This document shows positions 34-58,063 of a DNA stretch of 64,000 nt, one piece after another. The position numbers and the translations under genes were made by a program. Each line of letters opens with the position of its first letter. The first letter of the stretch is position 1. Location: contig BDGG01000003.1 in the NCBI GenBank assembly GCA_001949185.1, positions 3,145,158-3,209,157 of the forward strand, read 5' to 3'. The notes under the pieces were generated by a model. That model saw only the letters and a list, made by a program, of their open reading frames with translations, had not been told where the DNA came from and searched no databases. The stretch comes from Ramazzottius varieornatus. Taxonomy: Eukaryota; Animalia; Tardigrada.

Positions 34-280
34 GTTTGGTGACACGGTAAATACGGCCAGCAGAATGGAATCCACTGGCCAAGGCCTGAAAATACAGATT
101 TCTCCAAGCACCAAAGCTATTCTGGACGGCTTTGGGACATTCAAGACCAAAGACCGCGGGGAAATTGAGGTGAAAGGGAAGGGTGTAATTCGAACGTATT
201 GGCTCGTTGGACGAAGCAACCAGGAAGAGGAGGAGGAAGATGAACCACCGGTGGTCACTTTTACCGTCCCTGAAGCTTGA
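34..280 (+). CDS. Guanylyl cyclase, last exon (gene begins before the window)
   Basis: Acceptor ...cctatag at 33, then [15 protein letters not shown]...IQIS...[14 protein letters not shown], the canonical C-terminal part of the guanylyl cyclase catalytic domain; TGA at 278-280. Confidence 0.93.
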
Positions 281-804: not shown

Positions 805-1534
805 CCCATATTTAATTTAAGGCTTAAGAATGTACGGGGAAGAAAGTTTATAACGTTCTTTCGCCAACGAAAACAAATCGGTCAAACCTACTCAGAAAAA
901 TGTCGTGAACAATTCTTGTGCTTGCATGACCCCCCAAATTCCCCATAGGAAGCGAGATCCACAGATCACGCGACCAGAAACCCGAACCCATGAAAAATGG
1001 GTACTGACCCATGAACAAAAACGTCCCTAATAAACCCAACAGTCTCCCTGCCTTGAGTAAGGCTCTTGATTAAGTTACCCCAGCCTGAAGTTACCCCAGC
1101 CTGCTGCGTTAACACCCGACACCCGTCCCCTCGAGCACCGAGCCAGGAAACGACTAGATATTTACCCATCGTGCGTGTACGTACTGTATTTTCTCCCAGA
1201 GTTGGTGTACGTCACTCGAGCGGAACTAACACTGATGCGGACGATAGTCATGCGTCATCACCAGCCTAGCCGGATCGCTAGTTCGTCAGAAAGAAAAGCT
1301 GATTTCACGATAGCAGGTTGCACCTGGATTTTAAGCCAATTTCATGGCCTGTTTTGGTCAAAAATCTGCCAAAATCAGATAGAAAGCTGACTAGACGCTG
1401 ATTACGAGCTCAGTCAAATCAGATTTCGTGCGTAGGACCCGTGAGTGGAGGACTTTAGAGCAGGCACCAAGAACCCGACTGGGCTGGCAGTGTTAACATC
1501 ACTCGAGTGACGTACACAAATTTTGAGAGGTATG

Positions 1535-1744
1535 TACTGTATTCCCTCAATAGTTCTGCGAATTATGTCATCATGCCAGTAAATTACACCCGCACTGGTA
1601 TCGCTGATTGTTTGATTGTCGCCCATCATTACACTGGACTGGAGAGCAGTCTTTGATTGAAGGTATAGTTACTTTCTGTTCCCCGCCGGATGATATTTAC
1701 CACGACAGTCACGTGATTCGCAGAACTTTCGAGGGAACACAGTA
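1535..1744. mobile_element. MITE with TACTGT-ended ~30 bp TIRs
   Basis: Left TACTGTATTCCCTCAATAGTTCTGCGAAT; reverse complement of right end TACTGTGTTCCCTCGAAAGTTCTGCGAAT. Confidence 0.7.
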
Positions 1745-1793
1745 ATACGGTATGGAATCTGTGCATTGCGTTTGTGACTGGTAAAATAGCTGA

Positions 1794-2141
1794 TACTGTA
1801 TTCTCTCCGGAAATTCAAAAGGTGAAACTGCAGATATGGTCGGTAGGCGGTGGCTCATACGATTGAAACAGCTGTGACGCCACAAGATTCAATCAATCCA
1901 ATCAATCTGGAGAGTTCACATTTTGCTTGGTTCAGTTATGAAATCAGCTGTTCAGTGAATGACTCGCACAGACTAATAGTATTTTGTCCGACTGCGCTGA
2001 TTGGCTACTAAAGCTGTCCGTAAATACGTCAAGATCTGACGCCATGCTGGCTTTGTGTAACAGCTAAGCTAACACTCTAGTGAACCAGATGTCAGTGACG
2101 TACATCCATTTCCGGAGAGAGTTTCCGGAGAGAATACAGTA
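1794..2141. mobile_element. MITE with perfect 20 bp TIRs (TACTGTATTCTCTCCGGAAA)
   Basis: TACTGTATTCTCTCCGGAAA at 1794 and TTTCCGGAGAGAATACAGTA ending at 2141; same terminal TACTGTA as the neighbouring element. Confidence 0.72.
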
Positions 2142-3325: not shown

Positions 3326-6300
3326 ATGCGTAATTTCAAAAGGCGAAGGAAATACGAGACGATCAACCGCACGAAATCCTTCTTTATAATTTTTTGCCTG
3401 ATTTGTCCTGACCTCATCCAGTTCGCGAAGGGACAGAACACCGTCACCAATGTCAAAGCAGGGATACTCTTGACTAACGGCGCGAATCTTCCCTATGACT
3501 TTAACATACTGGCACCAGCTCTGGACACTGCCTACGACAAAGCTCTCCGCGATTACGGAGTGAACTTTATGCCAGTGTTAGCTCTTTACCAAGGAGGATG
3601 CAGCACGTCCAATGCGGCGGCCGAAACCTTCAAAGCTGTCAACCAGTCTGTCGACGTCATTATCGGTAAATCTCCGTGACCTTTTCCTTGTGTGAGAAAT
3701 GCGCCGTGGGCAGAGTAACTCAGATGTTACGACTCACGTGCAGACTTCAGGGCATATGGGACGGTCTGAATCTAAAAACAAATCTACACACCCTCTCCTC
3801 GCCCAAGCAGTCAAATATCACGGGGGCAGCAACGCAGGAAATATCGACACAGCCGTGTGTTTGCACAATTTTTTAATGGCGACTGTTGCGGCGTCTGGTC
3901 CACTAACCAATTTACAGCTGTTATTTAACCACAGCGAAGCTGTTCCGTGGAAACTTTGCTCGATGAAATCTAATCGTTTTTGTGAATTTTTGTACACCGC
4001 TGTTTGTAGTCAACCGCCATGGGTACAGCGGTAGGACGTCACGTAACGATAAATACTACGCAGGTGCATCGAATGTTTCATAAAGTTCGCCTTTGTGGGA
4101 TTTGATTGGCCTACTGGAACAGAGCGCGCGCGCGGTCGTCGTCTTATTTGATAGCCGCTCCATAATCCGAATCTCGTGACGGCATATCTTAGTTACTTTG
4201 CCCACGGCCCAAATCGTACTGGAAGGTACTGTTCTACTTTCGTGCAGGTCCTGGATGTACAGATGACATGATGATGTCTTTGGAAATGCAGACTTACTTT
4301 AAGATACCAAGTGTCACCGGTGGAGGAGATTTGGTGGATTCGACGGTACATCGCAGTACTTCTATGCGTTTCGTCTGTTTTCAGAAAACCACAACTCTGT
4401 ACGAATCAATATTGTTACTCTGGGTCTTTTCGCAGGCCAAATTTCCCTACACAACACGATGTGAGTGTATTCCAGTAAGAAAGACAGAGAACACTCTGAC
4501 GTTCGGTGTTGTTTGTTTAGGCGCGTACAATACATACACCCAGTGGATCTTCTTCATCCGAATGTGCCGAAAATTCGAGTGGCGGAACATCGCCGTGATT
4601 TACGATGGTCGGTAGTTCATTTTTTCATGGTTTGGATAACAGTGGAACCTCTCACACTTTACATACGTCACTGGACGCTTTTCTAACGCGGTTTTCCCGT
4701 AAAATTTCAGCCGGCAAAAGCCCCAATCACGCACTCATCCGTCTCGCTGTCGGTGGAGCGCTGACGTCATGGGTAGAAATCAGCTATGTGACTTAGATAA
4801 CCGCGTCAGAAAAGTGTCCACTGACGTATGTAAAGTGTGAGAGGTTCTACTGTATTGCGAAGATTATCATACTGTAGTTTCCGATATCTCTTGCCTACAG
4901 GCGACGACAGTTCCAAAAATATCAACGCAAACTCTTTAATGAAACTCATCCGGACGGAGAACCTGCGTTATTACGAACGGAAATTTTCAGGAAATGCAGT
5001 ACGCGAAGTTGACCAAGCCTCAGTGCACCTAGTCGAAGCCAGCAAGCAGTCTCGAAGTAAGCATAACAGTGTTGATTTCGGTCTCGGGCATGAATTCCGG
5101 CCGTTCCATCAATCAAGTACAACTGTTCCACTGAGACTGAATAGTAAAAACTAGCTTTTGTAACTCAGTTTTTAAATCAGCTTTCCATTCAGTCTTTAGT
5201 GGACGTGTGTTGCTCGATTGATCGTTAAGTACGTAAGTTATGCCCAGACTGAAATCAACATTGAAGCATAAGCTAAATTCCATTCACATAAGCACAGCGG
5301 AAACGGACAGACAGGCGCCCAAATGGGGTGCAAAAAGGGGGCATTAATGCCGAAGGAGCCATAGAGCACCCATTAGCGTGCTCGCTATCCCACCACTCCG
5401 ACGTCACTCTCCCTGTAGGCACAAGCCGACTTCCTACACAGGCAGAGCAGGCTGGAGGTACCGTATTAAAAAGGTCCGCAATCTGGCCCTGTTTCCACGA
5501 AGTTGTTTGTCAGGTCCGTTGCCGGCACAACCCTGACTGATAATCCATGAGAACTTCGTAGAAAAAGGGCCCAATCGAGAACCTTTTTGACACCTGAAGC
5601 CGCCTCGATACACAGCCAATGAAAGCCAGGGCAGCAGCTTGCCATATTCAGTGAAACAGTCTGATGAACCACACACAATCGGAACCCTCAAGGAAGTCTG
5701 GAATAATACGCCAATAACCTGTAGGCTTCGCAACAATTTCTTGTTCTCGAATGGACAATGTTATGATCGACGAACGCTCGGTGAATTTTTGGGAATATGT
5801 CTTCCATGGTGGAGGTTTTTTTCTTCTTCTGGAAAGACGTATCAAATCAGGAGTCCGAGAATAAAGATCATTGTCGCCTTCTAAAGTACGATATTACGAT
5901 ATTCTAAAATAGTTACTAAGAACACGCAGACATTGAAAACAATCTTGGTCAATATTTAAGATAGTTTTCAACTCCGCTGTCACATGTCCTCAGTATTACA
6001 GAAACGAGCCCAAAAAAGTTCTCGTTGTGGATCAACAGGCAATTCGTGGATAGAATATCTCAGGCAATCCACTGTATTACAGCCAGGAACCCTGCAACGT
6101 TTGCACCTGACAGGGCTCACGTACCAGATTGATCTCAGCCTCCGAATTAGCAAACAGTCAGCAAAAATAAAACGCTGGTTGAGAATGCAGTCGAAAGAAT
6201 ACAATCTAGGTAGTTGCATGGGCTAGCGTGCATTTAGCGAGACTACTTGCAAGTTATACTGTACAATCGACATGACCACTGGCCAGCTTCCTTCTGACAA

Positions 6301-9300
6301 AAATTACGTGCAGAAGAAATTCTCTCTTTTTTCCTAATGTGAGGTAAGGCTTGTGCGAACAAGTTACCAGCTTGGCCTGTGCTTTTCTCCACCTCATATC
6401 GGCGCCTTATTCCGCCCTATTCGTTTCCGTTATGGCATAAGGCAGAAGATTTGAGACGCCGGCAGCTGAAGTGAACATTATCGTTTTCTGGCGCACATGC
6501 CCATTATTCCTGACTGAACGTATGCGCCTGTATGAAAACGGTCGCGATGAAGTCATTTTCCGACGTCTCGTTTCTACTGTAAGTTTTCTTGTTTAACTGA
6601 AAGAACGATCGCTGTTCCAAAGTACAGGTTACTGTGCGGAATCAGGACCTAACATCCAATTGAAATTTCAGTATTCGTCATTTTGGCAACTGGGCAAGTT
6701 TTGCGGACATTTATGGTACGTGACAGGAATTTTTAACCCCTTGAGCACCACGCGATTTCATGCTTTGAGAATACGAGGTGGGAAAGTCACTTTCGTCTCT
6801 TTTGAACCGGTCAAAACTAGGGGGCGACTCCAAATTGGGCTAGTCATAACCTACTCGATCGGCTAAAATTTGGGAACATGCTGTAAAGTGCGCCACCTAC
6901 CAAGTCAAAACGCCACCTACCAACCTTCATTCTATCTTGACCATTGAGCAGATCTTTTCACGGATCCGAAACTCTCGCAAGATGCAAGAATGTTTGGTCT
7001 CAAACTACAATTTTTGTGTGGACTCTGAACCAACCGACAACCTGGCTGGGACAACAATTGGCTGGCTACGACGAAATTTCATCAAGAACGGAAAAAATCC
7101 AGACAGTTTTGCAGAGCTGTCGACCAGTGGCCGTTAGTTGCAGCTTGAAATGAAGTTGATTCTTCAGGCAAACAAGAAAAACCGAGCCGCAAAAGCTGAA
7201 CTGGAATTCCGCTACATACAAATTGGTTTGCGCCAGGAAAGTGAGTTTCCCGCCCGGTGCTCAAGGTGTTAAGGATGTGCACTCATTCGCGTGTTTGTTG
7301 TTTGATATTATGGAACTCGTACATCCAGGTCTCCGCTTTAAGACATGGTTACACCAACGGAGAGTATGTGTACCTTGCCTTGGACACTTTTCGCGATGAT
7401 ATTTTGGGACCTAACGGATGGAAACAAAGTGAGTATAGCCGAGTAATTCAATCTTGTCGCCAAATTGAAATTTAAGTAGGGAAGCATGCAAGTATTACGT
7501 TACCACCCGGCGACATTCCTTTTGATGGGTGGGGGGATGGTGCCTTTGATCTTTGCTTACGTAATACGTATGCTGCCTTTAGGGACTCGGTGTATGGTCT
7601 GCCAGTGCCTTTCCTACGTGCACTGCCTGTAATACTCCCTTTTACTAGATGCACTGATTTAAGTTTTCACACTGCTTTTCGGCTGGGCGCACGCCCTGGG
7701 TAGTGGTACTCCCTCCGGAGCACAGTAACTCCGAACGCTTGTCGGCGCACGAGAGCAGGAACTTTTACGGAGTAGGGATACACTAGACTGGTTCGGGAGC
7801 TAAACAGCGAGAGTGTACTGAAAGAGCTGTCGACGTCGCAGCAAGGACACAGTAACTCAGCTTTGGTAGTCGGAGACAAAGGACATACCTGTTATCGGGC
7901 TCGGTGCTTCCGGATCTCAAATTGTGTTTCAAATATTTTGGACTACGCAGATACTTATCCCGTAAAAACTGCCTGCTTTCTTCCGCCGGCACACGTTCAA
8001 GTCATTATGCTTCGAATGTTGTATTCGGGTCGTGGACCTAGCCAAAGAGCACGGTATGAAGCACGTTCACCTAGTAAGAGGGAGTGTCACGGGAAATGCA
8101 CGTAAAAAAAAGCCGTGGCAGGCCGTGTATATAGCCTTGACCATAAAATTATGCGAAATAGAGGTTGAGTGATTGCTAACTGATTGGGTTTCCATAACGT
8201 AGACGACAAATACGACAAAGAAGCTCGTTCGGCGTACGACTCGCTAATCGTGCTAACCTTGAGAAACACGGTGAACGAGCCGAGATACCAGGAGTTCGCC
8301 AACGCTGTTCGCGACACCGCTGCCCGAAAATATCCCTTAATGACTGTGGTGCTGAACTATTACGTGGCCAGCTTTTACGACTCTATCCTTTTGTACGCAT
8401 TATCCGTCAATGAAACGCTGGCTCTCAACCACTCGATCGGCAAAGACAACATAGATGAGCTCGCGGGAAAATACTGGAATCGCACTTTCCCCGGTAATGA
8501 AATCGATGCTGATTTACGAGGGTTACGCGCTTCTCTAGGACATTTCCCGTAGATATTACTCAACTACGGATTATTGTCATACAGGTGCGACGGGTGAAGT
8601 TTACATCAACCCAGTTGGTGATCGAAATGACGATCACGCCATTTACGATCTGGACCCCGATGGCGTCTATCGGGTACGCGCCGATAGTACAACAACTCGC
8701 TGCTCATTGTCCGCTCTTACCGTGGAAAACTCTTCTAGGTGGCAGCAGAGTTCTACGGGTACAAAGACATCCGGTATCCCAACTATATGTTCGACCAGGT
8801 CAAACCTCTCACTTGGAGTAACCCGTCCAACACACCACCGTTGAACGAACCCATATGCGGGTACTTGGGTGACGCAGCTATCTGTGATTACTCCGGTACG
8901 GTGGCTTACTTGGGAGGCCGGCACACAGTCTCGGGAAAATCGTTATCTCAGGTGGCGCAGTTTTCACAATTATAGGTCGGAAACGTGCGCCATATTGGAT
9001 CATGATCATCCCGAAGTTGTCCGCCGGCTTCCATTCATACTAGTCCTACCGTCTTTTTATAGGGCAAAATTTGGGCATCGCTCTGGGCGTAGTCGGTAGC
9101 CTTCTGCTGATCGGCTGCATAGCCGGTGCAATTGCCTTCCGCATCCTCAAACGAAGAGCCGAGCTAGCACAGCTCGACGTCTTGGGTACCTGGAGGGAAG
9201 TAGATAAACCACAAATTGCCATCGCAAAAAAGTTGGCCAAGGAAGTTGAAGCTATGGGCAGTCATGTCAGCGTTGAGCACAACAAACTCCTAGACGACTA

Positions 9301-12300
9301 CTCCTACTTCGGACCACAAACCGTCAACGCCACGTTCCGAGGGATTCGAGTGATTGTCCGCATCTGTGAAAAAGATCACGTGATCATCAATCGGTCCGTG
9401 TTGGTCGAAGTGAAGACCGTTCGTGCCATTCAGGACGACAATGTGGCTCGGCTGCTGGGACTCTGTGCGGGGCCTCAGAGGGTTGCTGTCATGTATGAGT
9501 ACTGCGCCAAAGGCAGCTTGTTCGTAAGTCAACTTTTGTTGTGTGAATAACAGATAGGGGACCGGCAAACAAGATGGAACGGTCGCTGTCCCAAGAGGCG
9601 CAAGTTTTCACTGAATAACAACGAAAACTGCGCCACTTGAGATTCCATCGTTCCAATCTTGTTTACCAGTAGTGCTGGCAACGATACGGTATACCGAATA
9701 CCGATATCGTATCGAAATATATCGAATCCTTGCGATAAAATATGGGACAGATATCGTATCGAAAATATCGATATGAAGCTCATATCGAATGACACAATCA
9801 AATTTTTGACGATATCGTACCGCGCCATATCGATATATTTTCGACATATCGGTATTTTGCTGAATGGTAAACTCGCCAATGATATCATGCTTACGGAAGA
9901 CCATGGTTGATTTCAAAGACTTGATTTCAGCCATGGTGTACTGAGCACAATCCGCCCATTCGGTCTTACTAATTGTGTCCAGGTTTCCAAGTGTTTGCAG
10001 TCCTGGTATAGTCACGTCTTTGCTGCATCCGACGCTTCCGATCTTGATAATGCATTAAGTGGAAATCGGCTTCTTGAGTTTTTGGGCCTGAACCAGTGGA
10101 CTCCCGAAAAACTAAAATTCTAGAAATATCGATATATCGCTACGATATAGTACGATATATCGGAAATGCGGTATCGAAAAAAAACCTTTCGAGAAGTCGA
10201 TACCGAATGAATATCGAAGACCGCGATAAAATATCCGCTGATATTTCATCGAAAACTTTCTTATCGAATTTTATCGTATTTTTACCAGCACTATTCGCCA
10301 GTGTCGTCTACGGGCGGCGGATAAGTGCATAAGTAAATGTGCTCTCAAAATCTTATAGCATGCAATTTTGCTAGGTATCAAAAAGTGATCCGGAGGCGCG
10401 GCTTCTTTATTTGTATGGGACGTCACATACAGAAACCAACTCTCCAAAAGTACTATCCAAAAGCACAGCAGTTTTGAGAGTACAAGTACCACGCAAAACA
10501 GTATGGTACACTTTTGACTAATGTCACAGTATAGATCAAAACTGATATGCATCAGTTGTGATCTATACTTCAGTATGGTTCGAAGCAGTAGGGTACTGCT
10601 TTCGTCTATACTACAGTATAGTTCAAAACAGTACCCTACTGTTTTGATACCTATCCAAAATGTATGCTACAAGATTTTGAGTGAATTTACTTATGCACTT
10701 ATCTGCCGCCCATAGTCCTGAACATCACCCAGCAAATTTCTCTCACTTGGTGTTACTTGAACTACTTGGTGGTAGGATCTCTTGGCAGCCGACGCGGTGA
10801 AGTTAGACTGGGTCTTCCGGTTCTCCATCATCAAAGACATTGTAAATGGTTTACTTGCCATCACGACCAGTCCACTATACTGTCACGGTCGGCTGACGTC
10901 TCGGTGCGTCTTTATTGATGGACACTTCGTCGGCAAGGTTGGGGACTATGGATTACCGAGTTTTTTCGCGCGGACTATACCTTTCACACAAGACAGCCAG
11001 TTCTGCGCTTCGCTGCTGTGGACAGCTCCAGAGCTTCTCGTGCGGCCCTTCGACGGTGGGACTCAAGAAGGCGACGTCTACAGTTTTGCTATAATATTGC
11101 AGGAGACCATTATGCGCGATAAGCCGTATGGATCGTACGACCTTAGTCCAGAAGGTACCATGAAATTCATCAGTCTCTTTAAGACTGTTCGGACTGTTGA
11201 TACTCCGTATGGATTTTCAGTCATCATCGCCAAACTGCAGAAGAAGTCGTCCAAGGGATTCCGTCCAAAAGTGGATGCCAGCCAATGCCCGCCAGAAATT
11301 TCTGTGTTGACAAAGCAATGCTGGGCCAATAATCCTATGGAGCGCCCCCGTTTAGCACAGATAAAGAGCGTAATGAAAGAAAGCGAACGGTGAGTATATG
11401 TGCGTCTAAAAATTCTTATTTCCAAAACTCTTCCTGTGCTTAGTATATGAGCGTATCAAATCGCTGTGAATATATGCTACTACTGTACTGTGCGGTCGCC
11501 CGGTATTTTTTGACCATTTTTTCCTACGATTTTTCAATGGTTCCAGGGCCGCAGGTGAGCAAGGAAGCATTCTGGATACACTCATTCGAAGGATGGAAAA
11601 CTACACGCTCGATCTCGAACACATCGTGGAAGAGAAGGCTCAGCAGTTTCTCATTGAGAAAGAAAAGAGTGAAGCTCTACTTAACCAGATCCTTCCAAGG
11701 TTCGCCTGATTTTCAAGTCAAATAAGCGCCTGTTTATCTGCAGACCAAAGTAGACTGATATCATTTTCAGGGTCGTGGTGGAACAGCTGAAACGCGGAGA
11801 GCAAGTTAAGCCAGAATCGTTCGACAGCGTGACTGTATTCTACACGGACATAGTCTCATTTACAACGCTGAGTTCCCAGAGCACGCCCACCGAGGTTGTG
11901 GATTTACTGAACGATCTATATACGGTCTTCGATACCTGCATCGCGAAGTTCGATGCTTACAAAGTTAGCCGCCTTTCTTCGCTGCCAACTACTCTTGTCC
12001 AGTAGCAGAATAATCACCAATTATTGTTCTGTTTTAGGTGGAAACGATCGGCGACTGCTACGTGGTGGCAAGCGGGGTTCCTGACAGAAATGGAACTCTT
12101 CATGCTAGAGAGATCTGTCGGTTGGCCTTACATTTGCTAGAACAGATCAAGATATTCAAAATACGCCACCGTCCAGATGAACAACTTAAGGTTCGGCTTG
12201 GAGCTCACACAGGTGAGACTTTTGCTCAGCTCGTTCGTGCGCTCAGTACCTACAATAAAACTTTATCTGCAATGGGCTTACTCATGTGCGCAGGTTCTGT

Positions 12301-12634
12301 GGTCTCGGGTGTGGTAGGACTGGTTATGCCGCGGTTCTGCCTGTAAGTATTTTGTGTTGTCACACAATAAGAATACGTTCTCTGTTTGCTGGTGGTCTGG
12401 TGGTCGGTTCGATGGCTGTTCGAATCTTTTCCTTGCAGATTTGGCGAAACCGTGACCATTGCAAACAAGATGGAGTCAACGTCGCAAGCGATGCGGATTC
12501 AGATCAGTTTCACCTGCGAAAAGCTGGTGCAGACCCACGGGCGCTTTGATGTTGAAGAGAGGGAAGAAGATGTGCGAATCAACGAAAAGCTGGCGATCAA
12601 AACCTTCTGGTTAAACCGTGAGCTGCCTTCTTAA
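3326..12634 (+). CDS. Receptor guanylyl cyclase (natriuretic peptide receptor-like), multi-exon
   Basis: Spliced ORF pieces give: signal peptide and ANF-receptor ectodomain (3326-8896; [27 protein letters not shown]), TM helix (~9070-9140), kinase-homology domain ([32 protein letters not shown]), coiled coil, and cyclase domain ([39 protein letters not shown]). GT-AG junctions, including a 25-nt microexon at about 4436-4460. At least one small ectodomain exon between 5057 and 7329 was not resolved; start codon approximate. Confidence 0.93.
4640..4852. mobile_element. pogo/Tigger-type MITE in an rGC intron
   Basis: ~55 bp TIRs: CAGTGGAACCTCTCACACTTTACATACGTCACTGGACGCTTTTCTAACGCGG versus reverse complement CAGTAGAACCTCTCACACTTTACATACGTCAGTGGACACTTTTCTGACGCGG; TA at the right flank. 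CAGTRGAACCTC ends resemble pogo-like elements. Confidence 0.8.
5068..5263. mobile_element. Small TIR element in an rGC intron
   Basis: GTTGATTTCGGTCTCGGGCAT on the left and ATGCCCAGACTGAAATCAAC on the right form an imperfect inverted repeat. Confidence 0.55.
9670..10293. mobile_element. Non-autonomous hAT-like element with CGATA-rich subterminal repeats
   Basis: Ends TAGTGCTGGCAACGATACG / CGTATTTTTACCAGCACTA; flanks TTTACCAG (9662-9669) and TTCGCCAG (10294-10301) look like a decayed 8-bp TSD; many CGATA/TATCG repeats in both arms. Confidence 0.78.
10308..10715. mobile_element. MITE with ~75 bp TIRs, TA-flanked
   Basis: Left CTACGGGCGGCGGATAAGTGCATAAGTAAAT...CTCAAAATCTTATAGCA...TAGGTATCAAAA; reverse complement of right end CTATGGGCGGCAGATAAGTGCATAAGTAAAT...CTCAAAATCTTGTAGCA...TAGGTATCAAAA. 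Confidence 0.85.
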
Positions 12635-13050
12635 CCCATGCATTTTTTTCTCATTCTTGCCTTTTGAGTGATATACGCACCAATTTCTGGAAATACTTCG
12701 AGTGAATATTATTGTGACCCGTCCTCAGAGCGTCGATGATAGAATACTTGATAGACCACTACAGAATTATGCCGTAAACAGAATGAACCAGAGGCCGCTG
12801 CAGGCATTAGGAAAGTCCGAACTCCACAATTTTGCCCTTTTTCTATGAATTTGCCTCTTAGGCCCGTGCCCGGTACACCCCCGACTGATATCCCATGAGA
12901 AACTTTAGGGAAAAGGGCCACCCTGCTAACTTTTCTAATACCTTCAACTGCCTCTGAAACGAACGGAAGCTCGGGTCTTATACGTAACATGTACAAGTAG
13001 TTTGATAGGACGGGATACTTTTTATTAATAGAGGATTCAGTACAGGTAGA

Positions 13051-14548: not shown

Positions 14549-15694
14549 TTAGGCTCCGTCCTCTTCCGCGTTTTCTTGCACTTCGGTAATGGCTTCTTGC
14601 CGCTTTTCTTTTGTTATCCTGACATCATTTACCCGAGTTAATGCTGTATAGGCCACGATCATCTTGCTGCCGATGATCTCATCCTTCATAATCGGATTGT
14701 TTTTGATCACCAGAACCTTCAGCCTGGCAAGTTTCACAGCCAGTTTCTCCAGCTCGGCCACATCCTCAAGGAAATTGAACGACACATTTAGATGTTTCAG
14801 GTTGGGTAAAGTTGGCCAGTCGGCCAGAGACTTCAACTTATTCCTCCGAACATCAAGGAACTCAATGCTTTTCATGCCTCTCAGGTTCTCCAGTTTCTCG
14901 ATGTTGTTTTGGGCAATGAAGAGAACTTTGAGTGCGGGAAACTTGACACTGGGTCCTCCGAAGCCGATCAGCCTGTTCTTCCTCAGTTCGAGTACTTCGA
15001 GTTCTCGAAGGTACCTCGGGCTCGACGGGGCGAAGTGCGCCAGTTTATTGTAGCTGAGGTACAGTCTTTGAAGATACGGATGCTCAACCACGCCATCCAA
15101 ATGCTTCAAGAAATTCTTGCTCACGTTCAGAACCTTCAAGTAGTTGTGGAGCTCAAAGCCTTCCAGTGATTCCAAGTAGTTATCGGATAGATCAAGCGAT
15201 ATCAGAAACTGTAGCTGATTGAGTGGAAGAATGTCAAAGATGTGATTTCCCGCCAGGGATACATATCGTAAATTGCAAAAGCTTTTGACCAAAGCGATAT
15301 CTGTGATGGATCGGCCAGGAAGATCGAGCTTGACGTATGCATGACTGAGGCCGGATATAGTTTTGGCAACCATCGAAAGACCCTCCGCCATCAGATATTG
15401 GCCGAGCTTCCGCCCCAGCTTGTCATATCCCTTCCGTATGAACTTGGCAAGAGACGGCGTCAGCCGTGGCTGCTCATATTCAGGGTCAAACGCTTGCTCG
15501 ATCCAAGTTTCCTCACCCGAAGCAACTGCTTCCGTATGCTGCAGTTCATCTTCGGGATCGGGCTTGAGACGTTTGATGCATTCTCCCTTCAGAAGCGGAG
15601 CTTCGGCGGGTGTCTCATCTTCCGTCTCTTCATCTATAACGGGTTCTTCCGATTCCTCGAGGTTCCCTGATTCATCGTCCGTTTCATCGGCCAT
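14549..15694 (-). CDS. Leucine-rich repeat protein, LRRC23-like (SDS22-type LRRs), single exon
   Basis: 381-aa ORF: acidic N-terminus, GLSMVAKTISGLSHAYVKLDL segment resembling LRRC23, tandem LxxLxLxxNxI repeats and a C-terminal LRR cap (NNPI). Confidence 0.8.
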   Translation of the reverse strand: MADETDDESGNLEESEEPVIDEETEDETPAEAPLLKGECIKRLKPDPEDELQHTEAVASGEETWIEQAFDPEYEQPRLTPSLAKFIRKGYDKLGRKLGQYLMAEGLSMVAKTISGLSHAYVKLDLPGRSITDIALVKSFCNLRYVSLAGNHIFDILPLNQLQFLISLDLSDNYLESLEGFELHNYLKVLNVSKNFLKHLDGVVEHPYLQRLYLSYNKLAHFAPSSPRYLRELEVLELRKNRLIGFGGPSVKFPALKVLFIAQNNIEKLENLRGMKSIEFLDVRRNKLKSLADWPTLPNLKHLNVSFNFLEDVAELEKLAVKLARLKVLVIKNNPIMKDEIIGSKMIVAYTALTRVNDVRITKEKRQEAITEVQENAEEDGA

Positions 15695-31683: not shown

Positions 31684-34600
31684 ATGGATCAGCACAAGTT
31701 ATGGTTCTCTGGGTTGGTTCTACGCGTTGCCCTCTTTGCAATCCTACCCCTCGGCCAAGTCTCCGGTACCGTAGCGACCACTGGCGGCAAAAATGCGAAA
31801 ATTGGTAAGTATGGATACCAGTCATCTTATGCTTTGCCCGCTTATCAATCAAACTGTTCTAGTGATCGTTGCCGACGCGAGGCACCCAGTCTATGGATCT
31901 TATGCCCAAATTGCGATTGATTTTATTAATCAAGAGCAGTCACTATCCATCGAACCGAACCCGCAAGGACCGCGGTTCCTTCTACAACACGCCACCGTCG
32001 AAGTTGCCCACAATGATTCCGATGCCACTTTTACCCAGGGTACGAAGCGGTCCCATGCAGGAGGTTACTGTACACGCAGACTACCTGATGGAAACTCCTT
32101 ATTCGAACTCTTTTCAGTGTGTTCATCGTACAACACCGCTTGGTCGGATTCAAGGCCGCATCTTCTGCTGGACATTACCGCCACACCCTTGTATGGACCT
32201 TCCATGTTACTGCAGGAATCTCCACCAGCGTTCACAATTCTATCAGCCGTACTTTTTTGGCAGGATTTCGGCAACTGTCAAATCATTCGCAAAGTTCACG
32301 GCAACTCCAAGTGCCAGCCTTTTGTGCTGCATGGTGGAGGAGCGCTTCGAAGGGGTCTTCACCGGTCAAGACTTTAACGATCATTTGGTTTTCGATCCTC
32401 CCTCAAAAGTCTGGATCCGCAGTATTCGCGACTTTGTACAACATGAAAATATGACTTCGGCAGCTATTGTTCTGGATAGAAGTTTTGGTAAGCCTTTTGA
32501 GTGTATGTGTTACCTATGTGTGCACTATGCATTCTACGACGGTGAGCTTTAATCGTTCTTCACAGTTATCGACAAGAATCAGCGAATGCTTCTGGCTAAC
32601 CTTCCATGCAAACATCTCATGACGTATTTAGAATTTCAAGATACAGAAGTGATCAACGCGTTTCTCACGAAGATGCGCAGCGTTGGAATACAAAATTACT
32701 TCGTCGTTGCGGAGATAGGTGCTGCTGGAAGATTCATCGATCAGGTTCGCTTGTGACATATTCGTTCTTTGAACGTTTCGAGCGAATTGAAAGCTTTGTT
32801 GTTATGTGCAGGCATTCCGACTCGGTGTGATGGTATTGAGACAACGGCCAAATTTCTTTGTGCTGACCAAGGTACATACTGTAGATTCTGTAGAATATTG
32901 TGAAGAATGTACTGCACGAGTTCTCCGACAGGGAATATCACATTATTTGACTAACTCATTGATTCAACGTAGAATACGGAGAATGTAGAGTGTCCGCAGT
33001 GTAGTGAAGCCAAGCTCATCAAGTTGAAACCTCAAATCGCCAACTCTCCCATCAAGGAGGAAGTACTGGCTTTCGCCCAAAGCAGACTTGGGAACGACAA
33101 TGGAACTTCACACTCAAATTTCTCTCAGGTTAGTCAATATCATACCTACGAGTATGTCAATATCATAGCCATAACCGCCGTACAGCAGGTTTGTTTTTCA
33201 GGTGGATTTCCTTTACATATTCGACACTGTGCAAGCTATAGTGACTTCGCTCCTACAAACGAATATCGACTCACGAAAGCCTGCGGTATCATGTGAGACA
33301 CGCTACACCGGCGTCAAGTCTACTAAACCATCGGAAGCGACAACCGCGACCGCCACAAAAAACCTTAGCTGGTTTTTCGAAACCGAACACCAGGGTGGAA
33401 TATTAGGTTCCATACTTTCCCGGAATGAGAAAAGTAACATGATCGTTGATGCCAAGCTCGATATCGAAGAGCAAACAATTACATTTACCGATACTCGAAT
33501 TACCCAACAGGTACACTTCTCAAATATCATCCGACGAGAGTATCGGGAACAAACATAATCTAATGGACTATGACGGTAAAACTGTCAACCCATCTCTTTT
33601 CTTTCCAGCTGGGGACTTGGAGTCATCGTAATGGTCTCATGGATCCCAAAGGCAAGGGCCGGTTCCCTCGTGCGGTAACCAGCTCGGCTCTTCGAGTAGC
33701 GGTGGTAGTGGTACGTGACATCCCCATTTAATTTAATGCTGCACAGTTCTGACCACAAACAATCTCTTTCATTTCAATTTTATATCGTCCTTTCATTTCA
33801 ATTTTACTGTTCGTGTGTAGCAAGAGCCTTTCATCATCAGAACAAAAAACGAAACCACGCCTTACAAAGGGTACCTCATCGACCTCATGCAAAAAATTGC
33901 CAACGAGCTGCAGATACAGTATGAACTGTACGAGGTCCCCGATCAGCAGTTCGGTGCTATGGACGACAATGGCGAATGGAACGGTCTGATTCGAGAGCTG
34001 GTGGATAAGGTACAGTAAGTTGGCTATGCAAGAATAACACTACAACAAGGTCCAGCTCAAGTGAGCATTGTTGACGCGTCAGACGGTCAGGGCACCTTTT
34101 CCACGATATTTGTACATATCAGAATGCCTTACTTTAGAAAGCTGATATTGGATTAGCCCCATTGTCCGTCATGGCCGAGCGAGAGAACGTGGTCGATTTC
34201 ACAGTTCCATATTTTGATCTTGTCGGTATCACGATACTGATGAAGAAGCCCAACCAAGAGCAGTCCTTGTTCAAGTTCGTGACAGTACTGGAAGCTCCTG
34301 TGTGGGCTTCCATCTTTGGAGCGTACCTTGTCACCAGCCTGCTCATGTTTGCTTTCGACCGACTTAGCCCCTACTCATACCGCAACCTGAAAGCAAAAGA
34401 GCGGGAGAAAAGTAATCAACAGGTGGTTACGGAAGTTGTCGCTGTGGACGTGAAAGTGGCGGACCTTCCCACAGAGGGAACCAAGCGAGAATCGGAGAAC
34501 ACTGATGAATACGGCACGAGGATCTTCACGCTGAAAGAATCGCTGTGGTTTTGCATGACAAGTCTCACACCACAAGGCGGAGGCGAAGCTCCCCGGTACG

Positions 34601-36060
34601 TTGCCAGTCATGGACAAAAATTGTACGCTAATCGAGCTGAGTGTTTTCGCTCTTTCTTCCGTAGGAACCTTTCGGGTCGCTTGGTGGCGGCCACCTGGTG
34701 GATGTTTGGCTTCATTATCATCGCCAGTTACACCGCCAACTTGGCTGCCTTCCTGACTGTGTCCCGTTTGGAACAGCCAGTAGGTGGTCTGGATGATTTG
34801 ATGAAGCAGTACGGTATTCGATATGGGCCGGTCGAAAACTCGGCCACCGAAACGTACTTCAAGCGGATGTGGAAGATCGAAGAACGTTTTTACGAGTAAG
34901 CGAGGTTCTTATTTACGTATAAATTGGCTCGTTAGCGATGAATTTCCTGTGCTTAGGATATGGCGGGATATGAGCTTGAATGAGTCCATGAGCGAAAAGG
35001 AGCGGGCTGAACTGGCCGTCTGGGACTATCCGGTCTCCGACAAATATACGAAGTTGTGGCTGACTATGAAGGACTTTCCTCGTCCCAAAACCACCGAGGA
35101 GGGTATCGAGTGGGTCAAAGCCACAAACACAACGGAGAGCGGTGAAAAGGACGGGTTCGCACTGATCGGTACACTTTACTTTTATACTACAACAATATTC
35201 AGTTTCCTGGGTTATACTGTGCTATAGCAATGGAGAAACTAATTTTTGCACGATGGTTTTTCTTTGTATTCAAAGGTGATGCTGCTACTTTACAATACAC
35301 GGCGAATCTGGACTGCGACTTGAACTTGGTTGGGGAAGAATTTTCGCGCAAACCATACGCCCTTGCGGTCCAGGAAGGGTCTCCTCTCCGAGACCAGCTG
35401 TCTGGCGTGTACGCCCATAAGACTGTTCGACGAGCATAATTAGACACCCGTATTAGTACATACCTAACGTATCGCACAAACGTTTTGCTTATTTTTTCAC
35501 AGAATACTGAAGCTGTTGAATCAACGCGAGCTTGAACTGATGAAGGAACAATGGTGGCAAATGGATAAGCAGAAAGCCTGTGGTTCCGGGGAGAATGAAA
35601 ATGAAGGGTGAGTCAGGTCTCCAATTACCACGCAAAGATCTTTCTGGATCGACAGTTCGAACGGTCATGTAATTAAGATGAACGCTTTTACGTTTACAGG
35701 ATATCCATTCAAAACATCGGTGGCGTCTTTATTTTAGTGTTAGCTGGGACAGTACTAGCTTGCATCATGTTGGCCTTCGAGTACTACTGGTACAAGCGTC
35801 GGCTCGTCAGAGAGTTCCCGCAAGTCAGCCAGAAGATCGAGATGACCACGGTTGGATCAGTGCAAAACATCAACTACCCCACGCCCATCAGTCCATCTAT
35901 CAGTAACCGTTCTCATAACGTCTTCAGTGAAACCGCCATTGACAAGAAAGGAGTGGATAACAAAGCTTTCGAAAGGCGCGAAAGCAATATCGCCAAAGAA
36001 ATTCGCCAGCGAAAGCAACCCAATCAAGTTAAGCCCGACGAAACGGAGGCCGCTGACTAA
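31684..36060 (+). CDS. Ir25a: Ionotropic receptor co-receptor IR25a, multi-exon
   Basis: Signal peptide and ATD; ERENVVDFTVPYFDLVGITILM; FTLKESLWFCMTSLTPQGGGEAP; LVAATWWMFGFIIIASYTANLAAFLTVSRL; the IR25a-characteristic WRDMSLNES..ERAELAVWDYPVSDKYTKLW. Confidence 0.93.
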
Positions 36061-36313: not shown

Positions 36314-37369
36314 TCAGCCGGTGGGCTTCAACAGACTTCTGAAAGCTTCCCGCCATACTGCCGACGCTAAAGGATAAGTGAGAGGGGTAATTAGTGGGTT
36401 GATACTGAGTAATACCACTGTGATGGTGTAAAAAGTGGAATCGAAATAATCCGATGTGCTGGCTATAGCAAAATACACCAGGTTTGGAGTCCAGAAGATG
36501 ACTGTTGCTGCCACGAGATACGTTAAGACCTTGAACTGAGATGTCGAAGAGCCAGGGACATTTTGTCTTCCCCGCGAGCGCTGCTGCGGTCCCACGGAAG
36601 CCGACGGACGAGCAAGATATCTATCGCGAACTCCGTCTGCTGCCGACAGCGTGGCACCAGGTTTGCTTCGAGCACTAGCTCGAACCTTTCGACGCTGAGC
36701 GACCTTCCATCCGATAATGGGATAGACTCCGACAACAACGACTTCAGGGACGACGTACAGAATGAGATCGCACAAAGTTGCCCATAAAGACTGAGCCATT
36801 AGATTCAGAGAGCAATCGCGAAAGTTCTCCGTTCGGTAGTACATATCGTCAGGTATCAGACCGGTCAATGTCCAAATATGCGCATAGATATACGTCAGAA
36901 TACACATGAGAGCCGCCAAACGTTTAGTGTGATACGTTTTATAATGCATGGGGAAACAGACGGCCCATAGTCGGTTGAGGGAAATGAGCATATGGAACTG
37001 GATGGAGAGACTGTACCATGTCCAGAATCCATACAGATAGACTGTGCAGAATGCGCGGCTGAATACCCATTTGTTCAAAGCATACAACGCAAAGTTCCCC
37101 GGGGTTGTAAAGATGGCAGTAACGAAATCGGTAATGGCCAAGTTCAGCATGTACACGTTGAAGGGAGTGTGGAAGGAGGAGCTGGAAACTTTACAGTAAG
37201 TTAGGAGAAAGATGCCGTTGGAAATTACTGTTCCTACTCCGATAACCAGAAGCAGCCATCCAGCGACCTCGGCATTGGGGTAAAATCCCACATCGTCGTT
37301 CGAAGCTGTGGCATTTGATCCTCCCGAGGTATTTCTCAGGGAACCAGCTGTAAGGTTATTACGGTCCAT
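36314..37369 (-). CDS. Class A (rhodopsin-like) orphan GPCR, single exon
   Basis: Seven hydrophobic segments, N-glycosylated N-terminus, TPFNVYMLNLAITD (TM2), TM3 Cys, ISLNRLWAV (DRY variant), FWTP, NPLITP; ATG of MDRNN at 37369. Confidence 0.9.
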   Translation of the reverse strand: MDRNNLTAGSLRNTSGGSNATASNDDVGFYPNAEVAGWLLLVIGVGTVISNGIFLLTYCKVSSSSFHTPFNVYMLNLAITDFVTAIFTTPGNFALYALNKWVFSRAFCTVYLYGFWTWYSLSIQFHMLISLNRLWAVCFPMHYKTYHTKRLAALMCILTYIYAHIWTLTGLIPDDMYYRTENFRDCSLNLMAQSLWATLCDLILYVVPEVVVVGVYPIIGWKVAQRRKVRASARSKPGATLSAADGVRDRYLARPSASVGPQQRSRGRQNVPGSSTSQFKVLTYLVAATVIFWTPNLVYFAIASTSDYFDSTFYTITVVLLSINPLITPLTYPLASAVWREAFRSLLKPTG

Positions 37370-37922
37370 TACCGTTTTCTCGTTGAATACGAGGCTGACG
37401 ATACTGTAGTTACACGAAAGTATCAGGACCAATTAATGTACAACGGGCAACAGTCCACCGGATGAATCAACTAGCAAGTTTTCTATGCTACCAAAAGACG
37501 GCTGGGTTTGTGTCTTATCCGAACCAACATACTGCGTAATACGAGAAGGGAAAAAGACGGGCTTTTAGGGTTAGACGGAATACGGAAAAGCGCACAGGGC
37601 ATCGGGGAATCATGAGATGAAGGCCCGTAACAATATTTTATTTAAGCCACATTGCCACGTTTGGGCTTTCAATTTATTATTGTCATGGACAAACTATCAA
37701 TATCGATACCTTTGGTGAAAACTGGACACTTTTGGGCAGAGGAATGATGATTTTAATTAAGGGGAAAGGACAAACAATCTTTGTTATACTAGAATTGTAC
37801 ATCAACATGTCATGAGCACAAAGAAGAAACTCCCACAACATTACGGTATTAAAATTGATATAAAGGAGCAGTCTATCAAAACACTTGCGCTACAGTGTTT
37901 TTGATACAGTACCTCATAACTC

Positions 37923-52200: not shown

Positions 52201-54497
52201 GTCAGGCCGCTGTACAGCACTACACGCAAGCTCAAGCGGCAGATGTGAAGCTGAGCGCCACCTATAGGAACTGCGCACCTATGCTGGAGAAGTACTGCCG
52301 TGGTCAACTAACGAAGGAGTCTACGTTCGATGACGCCATGGACTGCCTGATACCCTACAAGGATGAGCCGGAAATGTCCCCGCAGTGCATGGCCGAAATT
52401 CATCACTACCAACTGGTAAGTTCTCAGTTATCATTTGTTTTATGTTCAGAATTCTGGATTTACCCATGATCACGTTATTGTAGATTAATATCCAAGAATA
52501 TCAGCTAAACATCCGATTCAAAGAATCGTGTAAAGAGGACATCATCAACTTCTGCAGTGCAGAAACACGCGACATGTAAGTCAAAGTGGTTCGCCTTTCA
52601 GCTTCATCTCAAAGTCTGCCTTAGCCATTTCTGGACCCTTCTGAAGTACTGTAACCACGTGAACCGTAAATGATGCCCGGGTGAAAGTTAGAGACTACAC
52701 TGAGTCATCTGATCGTACTTGGCAACGATGACTCATCACGTGGTTGAGTGCGCGATACTTTGGTAGCACTACAGTACAATGCTTGAAATCTTACGAACTT
52801 TTCTTTTCAGCGGCGAAGTGATAGTTTGCCTTAGTTCCATATTCCGTGATGACACCTTGTCCAACAGCAAGCAGCGAATCAGCAAAGCTTGTCGATCGCA
52901 ACTACGGCATGAACTGCTCTCCAGAGTGAGTAGCTATTTTGATGCAATGCGGTGTACTGTATCCCACTTACCTTTATGGGTTAACAGGCACAAGAAGCTT
53001 CTCTGGATCCGATGATAAAGAATGCTTGCGACCAAGACATCCAGAAGCACTGTCCACCCACTGTCATCGACCAAGGTGGCGTCCTTGAGTGTCTCCGACA
53101 GAAGGTGAACCAGCTGACTTCGCAATGTCACAAGAGACTTTTCAAGATTGAGCAGCTACAAGCTGTGGATGAGCACGCCGACTACACATTAGTCCAAGCA
53201 TGTCGGCGTGTCATCGAGAAAAAGTGCCGCGATGTGGATGGAGACCAACTGCTACCTTGCCTGATCGAGGCGCAGAAGAACGGGGAAGTGGACCCGAAGT
53301 GCGGCAAGGTGATCGCGACGAGACAGTTGGAAGAGTACAAGGATGTCAGGTTGAACCCTGCATTGTATAAAGTGTGTAACCAGGATATGCAGAAGCACTG
53401 CAAGAAGGAACTGAAGAAGCTACTGGATCAAGAGAATGAGGCGAAAAGTGAGGTGGAAGATGACCTGATGTCCTGTTTGAAGAAACATAAAAAGAATCTG
53501 AGTGCGCAATGTGGGAATCAGATTCGCGAAATGATGAAAGAATCGGCACAAAATTACAAACTGGTAAATACTTTATCAAATTTATTTGAGTGGTCAACAC
53601 ATGCATGTAAATTTTTACGCACCTGCGTACACTTTCGTCGTAACAGATACACGACAAGTGTGTATGCAGATACTTGCAATGCAAGAGCGTCTCCTTTGGG
53701 AGTATGGCTGCTTGTCTGGCATGGACCTGCATACTTACGTACCGCATACGTTGTCACATCATGGTGTATGCAGGTTGTGGAAGGCCTTTAGTATGGTTTT
53801 CGTATCGCTTATGGCTAACTGCATCCCTTTCCAGGATCCGAAACTCGCCGATGTCTGCGCTCAGGATATTCAGATGTTCAGCGCGGACCAAAGAGAAGAG
53901 AAAGGGGAAGTTATGGAATACCTCAAAGGGCTCATGAAGGAACATAAACTCAAAGAAAGATGCGCGATGGAAGTCGCCCGAAGAGTTGCCGAAGGTATCG
54001 CTCGTAATAAGCCGTAGTCGTCGTACAAAGTTAACGCTGTTAACAAGGCTTGTGGATTCATTGCAGGAAAAGCCGATATTTATGTTGATCCGATACTATA
54101 CTCGGCCTGCCAGGTTGATTTGAATAAACTGTGTTACGGCATTCAGCCCGGTGAGGGAAGACAGTTCCAGTGTCTGACGTACGCTCTATCTGACGGACGG
54201 GAAATGTCAGCAGCATGTCAGTTGAAGATGAAGGAACGCATGCAGTTTGTGAAATACGCCTCCGAGGTACGTTCTTTACTTTGACGGAACAAATTATGAG
54301 AATTAACGCTTGTTATTTCTTTCCCGTAGATATACGTTCCGGAGAACCTTGAGGAACTCGCTTCCAGTATAGTAGAGAGTCCAGCTAGGTATTATTTTCT
54401 TTCGATAACGGGTGGCTTTCTGTTGGCGGTGCTGGTCATCGGCATATGTTGTGGAAGAGCTACGAAGAGAGTTCGAAGGGAACTCAAGAATCGATGA
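49272..54497 (+). CDS. GLG1: Golgi apparatus protein 1 (GLG1/ESL-1/CFR), multi-exon
   Basis: Signal peptide, many Cys-rich GLG1 repeats (VFSDYRLV..FAEAC..DV..LNCG, ELQADDFHLDR, DVRLNPALYKVC), TM helix and cytoplasmic tail CGRATKRVRRELKNR*. Confidence 0.94.
51473..51571. repeat. Best-preserved copy of a dispersed 70-100 bp palindromic element (about 16 copies in the window)
   Basis: Arms AAC.AACTYGACAAGATCGTTTTYCCAAGTGGCG and their reverse complement flank a 24-25 nt spacer. Other copies near 2171, 6481, 8936, 9580, 13968, 18568, 20918, 29045, 29123, 36108, 39283, 42551, 55440, 56620 and 59743. Confidence 0.9.
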
Positions 54498-58000: not shown

Positions 58001-58063
58001 CAAGTTCCATAGCTTCGCCAAGAACATAGGGATATCCTTCTTCCCTGGAGTTGATTTCTCCAT
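55046..58063 (-). CDS. Hsf: Heat shock transcription factor, multi-exon
   Basis: [16 protein letters not shown]...[39 protein letters not shown]...[10 protein letters not shown]...IKRK; HR-A/B coiled coil [26 protein letters not shown]; HR-C-like [19 protein letters not shown]. Confidence 0.93.

What the first reader, a model, noticed from the sequence alone, without database searches (positions are those of the whole stretch)
12440..12480. Receptor guanylyl cyclase with a soluble-GC alpha-type half active site, next to a paralog with an intact site
Seen: this rGC keeps both metal-binding Asp residues (FYTDIV, IGDCY) and the guanine-specifying Glu/Cys, but reads [13 protein letters not shown] instead of the canonical [13 protein letters not shown]. 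The upstream GC (34-280) has the canonical motif. Known: the Asn and Arg of DTVNxASR contact the ribose and stabilise the transition state, and the soluble GC alpha subunit carries VTLANKFES and donates only the Asp half-site in an obligate heterodimer. Inference: a membrane receptor GC has converged on the alpha-like configuration, so it should be weak or inactive as a homodimer and act as a heterodimeric co-receptor or ligand-specificity subunit, perhaps with the tandem neighbour. Heteromeric rGCs have been proposed in nematodes, so there is partial precedent.
Basis: partly seen in the sequence, partly recalled or inferred. Interest (0 to 1): 0.8.

Follow-up and report, generated by a model that had tools for sequence, protein, structure and literature searches.

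The report
Tardigrade half-enzyme receptor guanylyl cyclases
A water-bear membrane receptor keeps only the metal-binding half of its cGMP-making active site, a loss shared by all seven relatives found in two other tardigrade genera, so it likely makes cGMP only when paired with a sister receptor, possibly the neighbouring gene, whose relatives have altered the opposite half.

Summary
Observation confirmed. [13 protein letters not shown] opens a spliced last exon (joint 12342→12439 in 4 of 6 runs laid, four studies) of an intact 1053-aa receptor guanylyl cyclase; its NCBI model is Ramazzottius varieornatus RvY_07549. It keeps Asp876, Asp920, Arg967 (metal/phosphate half) and lacks the partner-half Asn, Arg and Lys. 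Seven Hypsibius and Paramacrobiotus relatives share the Asn/Arg loss and form one clade inside receptor cyclases, so the soluble-alpha likeness is convergent. pN/pS 0.22 argues against decay.

'Intact' neighbour is unproven: its Asp region lies outside the window. Its two best-matching orthologs keep all eight catalytic residues but carry Thr→Gln/Ala and Gly→Gln/His on the metal-binding side (2 of 219 sequences), changes that would fall in the same pocket as our protein's losses. The Hypsibius ortholog has the accession next to the half-site ortholog.

Best reading: obligate heterodimer subunit with one working site (0.65); neighbour as partner about even, since published expression is not coordinated. 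Precedent: nematode ODR-1/DAF-11. The scan noted a similar split in octopus (unchecked). New variant of a known kind.

The parts
3326..12634 (+). Half-site receptor guanylyl cyclase gene, 18 coding exons, 1053 aa: 3326-3665, 4248-4345, 4436-4460, 4521-4607, 4901-5056, 6672-6715, 7329-7428, 8203-8493, 8585-8673, 8739-8895, 9063-9523, 10776-11154, 11221-11389, 11547-11699, 11771-11963, 12038-12212, 12294-12342, 12439-12634
   Evidence: One open frame, all introns GT..AG; 14 of 17 joints listed in contigs, 5056/6672 backed by a loose end, 3665/4248 and 4607/4901 and the start codon inferred from tblastn of orthologs
3326..8895 (+). Signal-like hydrophobic stretch (aa 19-34) and ANF-receptor-type extracellular domain
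   Evidence: Hydropathy; Pfam PF01094 on P0001; 67% identical to Hypsibius P0002
9063..11389 (+). Single transmembrane helix (aa ~465-490) and kinase-homology domain
11547..11819 (+). Coiled-coil hinge (dimerisation helix)
   Evidence: 81-84% identical to tardigrade relatives; alignment
11847..11849 (+). Asp876, first metal-binding Asp, kept (8/8 in clade)
12041..12055 (+). Glu916 (guanine) and Gly919-Asp920 (second metal-binding Asp), kept (7/7 where the model covers it)
12194..12196 (+). Arg967, triphosphate-binding Arg of the metal-side subunit, kept (8/8)
12338..12340 (+). Cys988 (guanine), kept (8/8)
12455..12469 (+). Helix alpha4: Thr995 in place of the ribose Asn, Lys999 in place of the transition-state Arg
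   Evidence: Thr995 aligns with AC5 C1a T512
12581..12592 (+). NEKL in place of the KGKG phosphate loop (first Lys lost in 6/8, both Gly lost in 8/8)
34..280 (+). Last coding exon of the upstream receptor GC (candidate partner; probably RvY_07548): Asn, Arg and KGKG intact; preceding spliced letters read IGLTVPRYCL, with the V→I and M→V changes of the partner clade
   Evidence: loose end at place 34; best match P0126 114 bits vs 91 for canonical tardigrade paralogs

Best explanation
This gene encodes an intact, spliced, conserved tardigrade receptor guanylyl cyclase that keeps the metal-binding half of the active site (Asp, Asp, Arg) and lacks the other half (Asn, Arg, Lys), so it is predicted to be inactive alone and likely makes cGMP as the alpha-like subunit of a mixed receptor dimer. 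In such a dimer its Asp876/Asp920/Arg967 would combine with a partner's Glu/Cys/Asn/Arg/Lys into one working site, while its Thr995/Lys999/NEKL would line a second, dead or regulatory pocket. The best candidate partner is the upstream gene, whose orthologs changed the P-loop Thr and the Gly before the second Asp, positions that would fall in that same dead pocket (about even odds that it is the partner). The half-site chain would add its own extracellular domain, changing ligand specificity or gain. Shown: residues, splicing, conservation, tree position. Inferred: inactivity, pairing, partner, ligand role.
For: Residue roles by subunit: Asp/Asp/Arg from one chain, Asn/Arg/Lys from the other (PMC2576301 passages; PMC3591389 section 13); sGC alpha2 and beta2 catalytic homodimers have no activity. 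Of the best 120 of 3384 hits, all 8 tardigrade proteins lack Asn and Arg and keep the Asp/Arg side; the other 112 read [13 protein letters not shown]. Clade support 100/100. Cyclase domain is better conserved (72-74%) than ECD (53-67%) or KHD (64-67%). Second-strain differences: 10 synonymous, 7 nonsynonymous, pN/pS 0.22, p=0.002. Losses at near-invariant columns: half-site clade 9 in the alpha4-beta8 block and 5 before it, partner orthologs 0 and 7, no overlap among 80 columns, Fisher p=0.007. Only P0126 and P0129 of 219 sequences with D,D,N,R lack the Thr and Gly. Bits vs human sGC alpha/beta: half-site 149/120, canonical paralog 166/159, partner ortholog 137/138. Hypsibius partner OQV18216 lies among half-site genes OQV18214, 18215, 18219, all on a 451,386-nt contig.
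Against: No activity or binding data. The Ramazzottius neighbour's Asp region was never seen. Its orthologs keep all eight catalytic residues, so it may work as a homodimer; only two orthologs carry the partner signal. Published FPKM: RvY_07548 6.4, 59.5, 4.3, 5.0, 6.3, 4.0 vs RvY_07549 1.0, 3.2, 2.2, 2.2, 2.2, 2.4; a 19-fold excess in 4-day embryos does not fit a strict 1:1 pair. In Paramacrobiotus the partner ortholog is on a different contig (804,707 nt) from the four half-site genes. Half-site and partner clades are sisters in only 650 of 1000 bootstraps. The block for the Fisher test was chosen from known residues after seeing the data, and the 219 sequences include many near copies.
Confidence: 0.65

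Rival explanations
1. Damping or decoy subunit: it binds ligand or sequesters canonical receptor GCs into dimers with one site instead of two, or none, and its job is to lower or clear signalling (like NPR-C or dominant-negative rGC isoforms, recalled).
For: Low, flat expression (2-3 FPKM) beside a much more dynamic neighbour; ECD, KHD and hinge conserved; canonical paralogs exist in the same tardigrade clade.
Against: A pure decoy has no reason to keep Asp, Asp, Arg, the P-loop Thr and Gly-Asp in every member across three genera while Asn, Arg and KGKG changed.
Confidence: 0.17
2. Active but slow homodimer: Thr and Lys are conservative substitutes for Asn and Arg, and the enzyme works alone at low rate or on another substrate.
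For: Lys is fixed 8/8 and Thr 7/8, Glu and Cys are kept 8/8, which suggests constraint on this face; some bacterial class III cyclases tolerate loss of these residues (recalled).
Against: The same Thr (and Lys) with kept Glu/Cys occur in sGC alpha (FGHNVTLANKFES) whose homodimer is inactive; the KGKG loop is also lost and variable.
Confidence: 0.13
3. Decaying duplicate or annotation artefact.
For: NCBI model is truncated and expression is low.
Against: Full open frame of 1053 aa, splicing in four studies, pN/pS 0.22, same losses in 7 relatives of two other genera.
Confidence: 0.02
4. The cyclase domain descends from, or was converted by, a soluble GC alpha gene.
For: VT(I/L)ANK.ES match; GDCY and VTLAN match to AC5 C1.
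Against: Cyclase domain 215 bits to NPR1, 163 to GC-C, 128-133 to sGC alpha; same last-intron position and phase as the upstream rGC; nested among tardigrade rGCs 100/100. sGC alpha itself was not in the trees.
Confidence: 0.03

Closest known systems
C. elegans ODR-1/DAF-11 heterodimeric receptor guanylyl cyclase (PMC5225109, PMC8045692; passages read)
   Same: Membrane rGCs lacking part of the catalytic set and predicted, with genetic support from chimeras, to form one site from two paralogs.
   Different: Independent origin is likely: the tardigrade half-site clade sits with tardigrade canonical paralogs, away from the one Caenorhabditis half-site sequence sampled (P0276, long branch; whether it is DAF-11 was not established). 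The tardigrade candidate partner keeps both Asp residues and is tandem-linked in two genera.
Soluble guanylyl cyclase alpha subunit (alpha1/beta1; PMC3591389)
   Same: Keeps Asp, Asp, Arg plus Glu/Cys; Thr and Lys at the Asn and Arg positions; no KGKG.
   Different: Transmembrane receptor with ECD and kinase-homology domain, no H-NOX/PAS; derived from NPR-like rGCs.
Mammalian adenylyl cyclase C1a/C2a pseudo-heterodimer and its forskolin pocket
   Same: Thr995 aligns with C1a T512 (numbering offset 78 from D440), a forskolin contact (PMC13584753 passage); the partner's Gln/His sits next to the S942-equivalent position.
   Different: Two genes, guanine-specific residues; no evidence that the dead pocket binds a regulator.
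NPR-A/NPR-B (GC-A/GC-B) homodimeric receptors
   Same: Domain layout; 583 bits over aa 18-818 of P0001.
   Different: They carry a complete site in each chain.

Membership tests
Receptor guanylyl cyclases (NPR-A/B type) | ANF-receptor ECD, one TM helix, kinase-homology domain, hinge, class III cyclase domain | tested here: met
Receptor guanylyl cyclases (NPR-A/B type) | All eight active-site residues in one chain (homodimer-competent) | tested here: not met
   Asn, Arg, Lys missing
Receptor guanylyl cyclases (NPR-A/B type) | Ligand-stimulated cGMP synthesis | not testable with these tools
   needs assay
Soluble GC alpha subunit | Asp/Asp/Arg kept, Asn/Arg/Lys absent | tested here: met
Soluble GC alpha subunit | Soluble, with H-NOX and PAS/HNOBA domains | tested here: not met
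   Pfam finds neither on P0001; TM helix present
Soluble GC alpha subunit | Descent from the sGC alpha lineage | tested here: not met
   215 vs 128-133 bits; nested among rGCs; sGC alpha not included in the trees
ODR-1/DAF-11-type heterodimeric rGC | rGC lacking one half of the catalytic set | tested here: met
ODR-1/DAF-11-type heterodimeric rGC | A paralog with the complementary defect | tested here: inconclusive
   Neighbour's orthologs altered on the metal side but keep both Asp; Ramazzottius copy of that region not seen
ODR-1/DAF-11-type heterodimeric rGC | Co-expression in one cell and activity only as a pair | not testable with these tools
   Whole-animal FPKM both present in all six conditions but not proportional
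ODR-1/DAF-11-type heterodimeric rGC | Orthology to the nematode pair | tested here: inconclusive
   Named ODR-1/DAF-11 sequences were not obtained; clade groups with tardigrade paralogs, not with P0276

The most novel reading that the evidence does not exclude
A tardigrade tandem duplication split a homodimeric peptide-receptor cyclase into a reciprocal pair: one chain converged on the soluble-alpha/AC-C1 letters (Thr, Lys, GDCY), the other closed its own metal side by a new route, a Gln/His beside a retained Asp, leaving one catalytic site and one forskolin-like pocket; later expansion of the half-site genes (3 in Hypsibius, 4 in Paramacrobiotus, 1 partner each found) gives a common subunit with interchangeable ligand-specificity subunits.
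Probability: 0.35. Interest if true: 0.72.

Novelty: new variant of a known kind. Interest (0 to 1): 0.52.

Why it matters
Heterodimeric receptor cyclases are described mainly from C. elegans, where formal proof in native cells is still lacking (PMC8045692 passage). A separate origin in tardigrades, with canonical sister paralogs still present and a linked candidate partner, gives a clean two-gene test of how a homodimeric enzyme becomes an obligate heterodimer, and shows which substitutions recur (Asn→Thr, Arg→Lys). It also warns that part of the expanded tardigrade cyclase family, whose role the genome paper called elusive (PMC5034306 passage), is annotated as active enzyme but probably works only in combinations.

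Tried and rejected
No whole genome is held, so a genome-wide table of Ramazzottius rGCs could not be made. The upstream gene's own protein did not appear among the best 120 of 5485 hits, so its Asp region remains unseen. Metagenome scan with the clade alignment: 80 loci, none above 58% identity, none used. Representative search with the last exon: 52 hits, useful only for side leads. ESM Atlas for P0276 and P0001 returned generic cyclase clusters and did not name P0276. Contig depths were not used to compare expression, as the tool forbids ranking by them; no listed holder is on record as RNA, the RNA nature is read from the spliced joints. Sister relation of half-site and partner clades: unresolved, 650/236/114 of 1000 bootstraps for the three options. 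His→Asn in the partner was dropped as a signal since 12 other sequences and P0007 have Asn there. Literature: searches tardigrade + guanylate cyclase + expansion (6 papers), tardigrade + guanylyl cyclase (8 papers, 7 listed), and searches listed no paper on half-site tardigrade rGCs (listings only; subscription journals are not covered; Supplementary Fig. 6 of PMC5034306 could not be seen and may bear on this). Look-ups of earlier findings by place and by sequence were empty. One search was a script error, redone.

Full report
Observation. The motif [13 protein letters not shown] lies at 12440-12478 on the + strand, FYTDIV at 11838-11855, IGDCY at 12047-12061, and the upstream canonical [13 protein letters not shown] at 35. 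A loose form of the motif occurs twice in the window and never in 50 shuffles. Contigs of public runs join 12342 to 12439 across a GT..AG intron in X1, X2 and X4 and X2, X4 and X10: 4 of the 6 distinct runs laid, from four studies; X7 and X17 do not list the joint.

Gene. Joints from the contigs plus tblastn of orthologs give 18 exons from 3326 to 12634 with one open frame of 1053 aa. Fourteen of 17 joints are listed in contigs; one more is backed by a loose end and two, with the start codon, are inferred. The last exon matches P0001 at 100%, named Ramazzottius varieornatus RvY_07549; that 821-aa model lacks the first six exons. Domains: signal-like stretch, ANF-receptor ECD, one TM helix, kinase-homology domain, hinge, cyclase.

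Active site. In class III cyclases one chain gives two Asp and an Arg, the other gives Glu/Cys, Asn, Arg and Lys (PMC2576301, passages; PMC3591389, section 13). This protein keeps Asp876, Asp920, Arg967, the P-loop Thr881, Gly919, Glu916 and Cys988, and has Thr995 for Asn, Lys999 for Arg and NEKL for KGKG (that the first Lys of KGKG is the catalytic one is recalled). Manduca sGC alpha reads FGHNVTLANKFES and AC5 C1 reads LGDCY and DVTLANHME. Isolated sGC alpha2 catalytic homodimers have no activity.

Conservation. Among the best 120 of 3384 hits to the hinge and cyclase, the top eight are tardigrade: this one, three Hypsibius and four Paramacrobiotus proteins. All eight lack Asn and Arg (Thr 7/8, Arg 1/8 at the Asn position; Lys 8/8 at the Arg position) and both KGKG glycines, and all keep the first Asp and the Arg; the second Asp is kept in 7 of 7 (the P0007 model lacks that segment). 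The other 112 are canonical but mostly vertebrate near copies. The eight form one clade (100/100) within a tardigrade group that also holds canonical paralogs (100/100, 22 rows, 47 rows, quick method). The cyclase domain scores 215 bits against NPR1 and 128-133 against sGC alpha, so the alpha likeness is convergent; sGC alpha was not available for the trees. The cyclase (72-74%) and hinge (81-84%) are more conserved than ECD (53-67%) and KHD (64-67%). Differences in a second strain over 6600-12800 are 10 synonymous and 7 nonsynonymous, pN/pS 0.22, binomial p=0.002; one further nonsynonymous change at 4560 lies outside that stretch and was left out because one search's list was cut, and a few differences near exon ends are counted but not listed by the tool. 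Decay is rejected.

The neighbour. Only its last exon is in the window. Its best match among ten proteins compared is Hypsibius P0126 (114 bits), then Paramacrobiotus P0129 (99), ahead of canonical tardigrade paralogs (91). P0126 is OQV18216, next to half-site OQV18215 and near OQV18214 and OQV18219, all on a contig of 451,386 nt; P0129 is on a different contig from the four Paramacrobiotus half-site genes. Both keep all eight catalytic residues but read KVETIQDSY/KVETIHDSY and DIVGFQ/DIVGFA. Of 219 sequences that keep D, D, N and R, 217 have the Thr and the Gly; these two are the exceptions. The 30 spliced letters before the Ramazzottius exon read IGLTVPRYCL, sharing two changes otherwise seen in these orthologs. 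Among 80 near-invariant cyclase columns (background 85 sequences; columns changed in canonical tardigrade paralogs dropped), the half-site clade lost 9 in the alpha4-beta8 block and 5 before it, the partner pair 0 and 7, with no overlap (Fisher p=0.007, block chosen after seeing the data). Scores against human sGC alpha/beta shift accordingly: 149/120 half-site, 166/159 canonical, 137/138 partner.

Mechanism (inferred). In a mixed dimer, the half-site chain's Asp/Asp/Arg meet the partner's Glu/Cys/Asn/Arg/Lys in a fully canonical site; the half-site chain's Thr/Lys/NEKL meet the partner's altered P-loop and Gln/His-Asp in the other pocket. Thr995 aligns with AC5 residue 590 of chain 8sl3, which is T512 in the numbering where the second Asp is D440, a forskolin contact along with S942 (PMC13584753, one passage); the partner's Gln/His is adjacent to the S942-equivalent position. 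Whether that pocket is closed or regulatory is unknown. Retention of the Asp side across three genera is the main argument that the chain contributes to catalysis in trans rather than acting as a decoy.

Against. No biochemical data. The partner may be active alone. Supplementary Data 2 of PMC5034306 (rows read by search; file cut at 8,991 rows) gives FPKM for embryo 2 d, embryo 4 d, active, dehydrated, rehydrated 80 min and 3 h of 6.4, 59.5, 4.3, 5.0, 6.3, 4.0 for RvY_07548 and 1.0, 3.2, 2.2, 2.2, 2.2, 2.4 for RvY_07549: both are present throughout, but the neighbour's embryonic peak is not matched, and only one Ramazzottius half-site gene appeared. That RvY_07548 is the upstream gene is inferred from numbering and domains. 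Half-site and partner clades are sisters in 650 of 1000 bootstraps only.

Known systems. C. elegans ODR-1/DAF-11 are described as an obligate heterodimer in which each chain supplies part of one site (PMC5225109, passages), with chimera support but no formal proof in native cells (PMC8045692, passages); the primary papers they cite (Morton 2004, Murayama 2013) were not read. Chytrid rhodopsin cyclases are another heterodimer case (PMC8815786, passages). PMC1435932 (passages) added nothing on half sites. The genome paper notes an expansion of guanylate cyclases of unknown meaning. Six searches listed no paper on half-site tardigrade rGCs. An unreviewed note of this scan reports a comparable split in octopus; I did not test it.

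Verdict. Real, conserved and under purifying selection; works most likely like an sGC alpha subunit but is a receptor GC by descent. Heterodimer subunit 0.65; neighbour as the partner about even. New variant of a known kind, interest 0.52.

Noticed in passing
window 3326-6715: The NCBI model RvY_07549 (821 aa) omits the first six exons, including the signal-like stretch and a 44-nt exon at 6672-6715; the full frame is 1053 aa.
   Followed up: yes
P0262 (XP_055350346) and P0254 (XP_055331094), Paramacrobiotus: Two more half-site rGCs outside this clade: P0262 keeps Asp/Asp/Arg and reads DTVAVAQKMES (second alpha-like origin); P0254 has lost the first Asp and reads IETIKDSY with Asn/Arg/Lys kept (beta-like, also a bulky residue before Asp2). 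Another possible partner type.
   Followed up: partly
P0276 (Caenorhabditis sp. 36, CAI2357546): Nematode rGC with both Asp kept and DTVIVANNMES, no KGKG; possibly a DAF-11-like chain, not established.
   Followed up: partly
P0260, P0251, P0243, P0247: Kinase-homology-plus-cyclase proteins with Glu→Ala, Cys→Leu/Phe and Asn→Asp/Ser, Arg→Lys in three of four: a further degenerate rGC group, mostly from unnamed records.
   Followed up: no
window 11547-11699 (hinge): The half-site clade has EKEK (7/8) where canonical rGCs have EKRK and the partner orthologs EKTK/EKKK; a charge change that might disfavour homodimers (speculative).
   Followed up: no
upstream of the window (RvY_07547, RvY_07548): RvY_07547 (ANF-receptor domain only) and RvY_07548 both peak about tenfold or more in 4-day embryos; probably one gene split in annotation.
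   Followed up: partly
P0007 (OQV18219): The Hypsibius model lacks nine residues around the second Asp, probably a splice-site annotation error; not checked.
   Followed up: no
window 1150-2100, 6730-6910, 9600-10350: Dispersed repeats between the genes and in introns (many contigs that run on into unrelated sequence).
   Followed up: no
window 14549-63000: Ordinary neighbours by Pfam: LRR protein 14549-15694(-), ionotropic glutamate receptor piece 34138-34899(+), rhodopsin-family GPCR 36314-37432(-), cytochrome P450 47174-48208(+), Cys-rich FGFR-repeat protein 52985-53791(+), HSF 57734-58135(-), calponin-homology protein 59126-59530(-), aromatic amino acid hydroxylase 60879-61262(-). No other cyclase piece beyond 13000.
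   Followed up: partly
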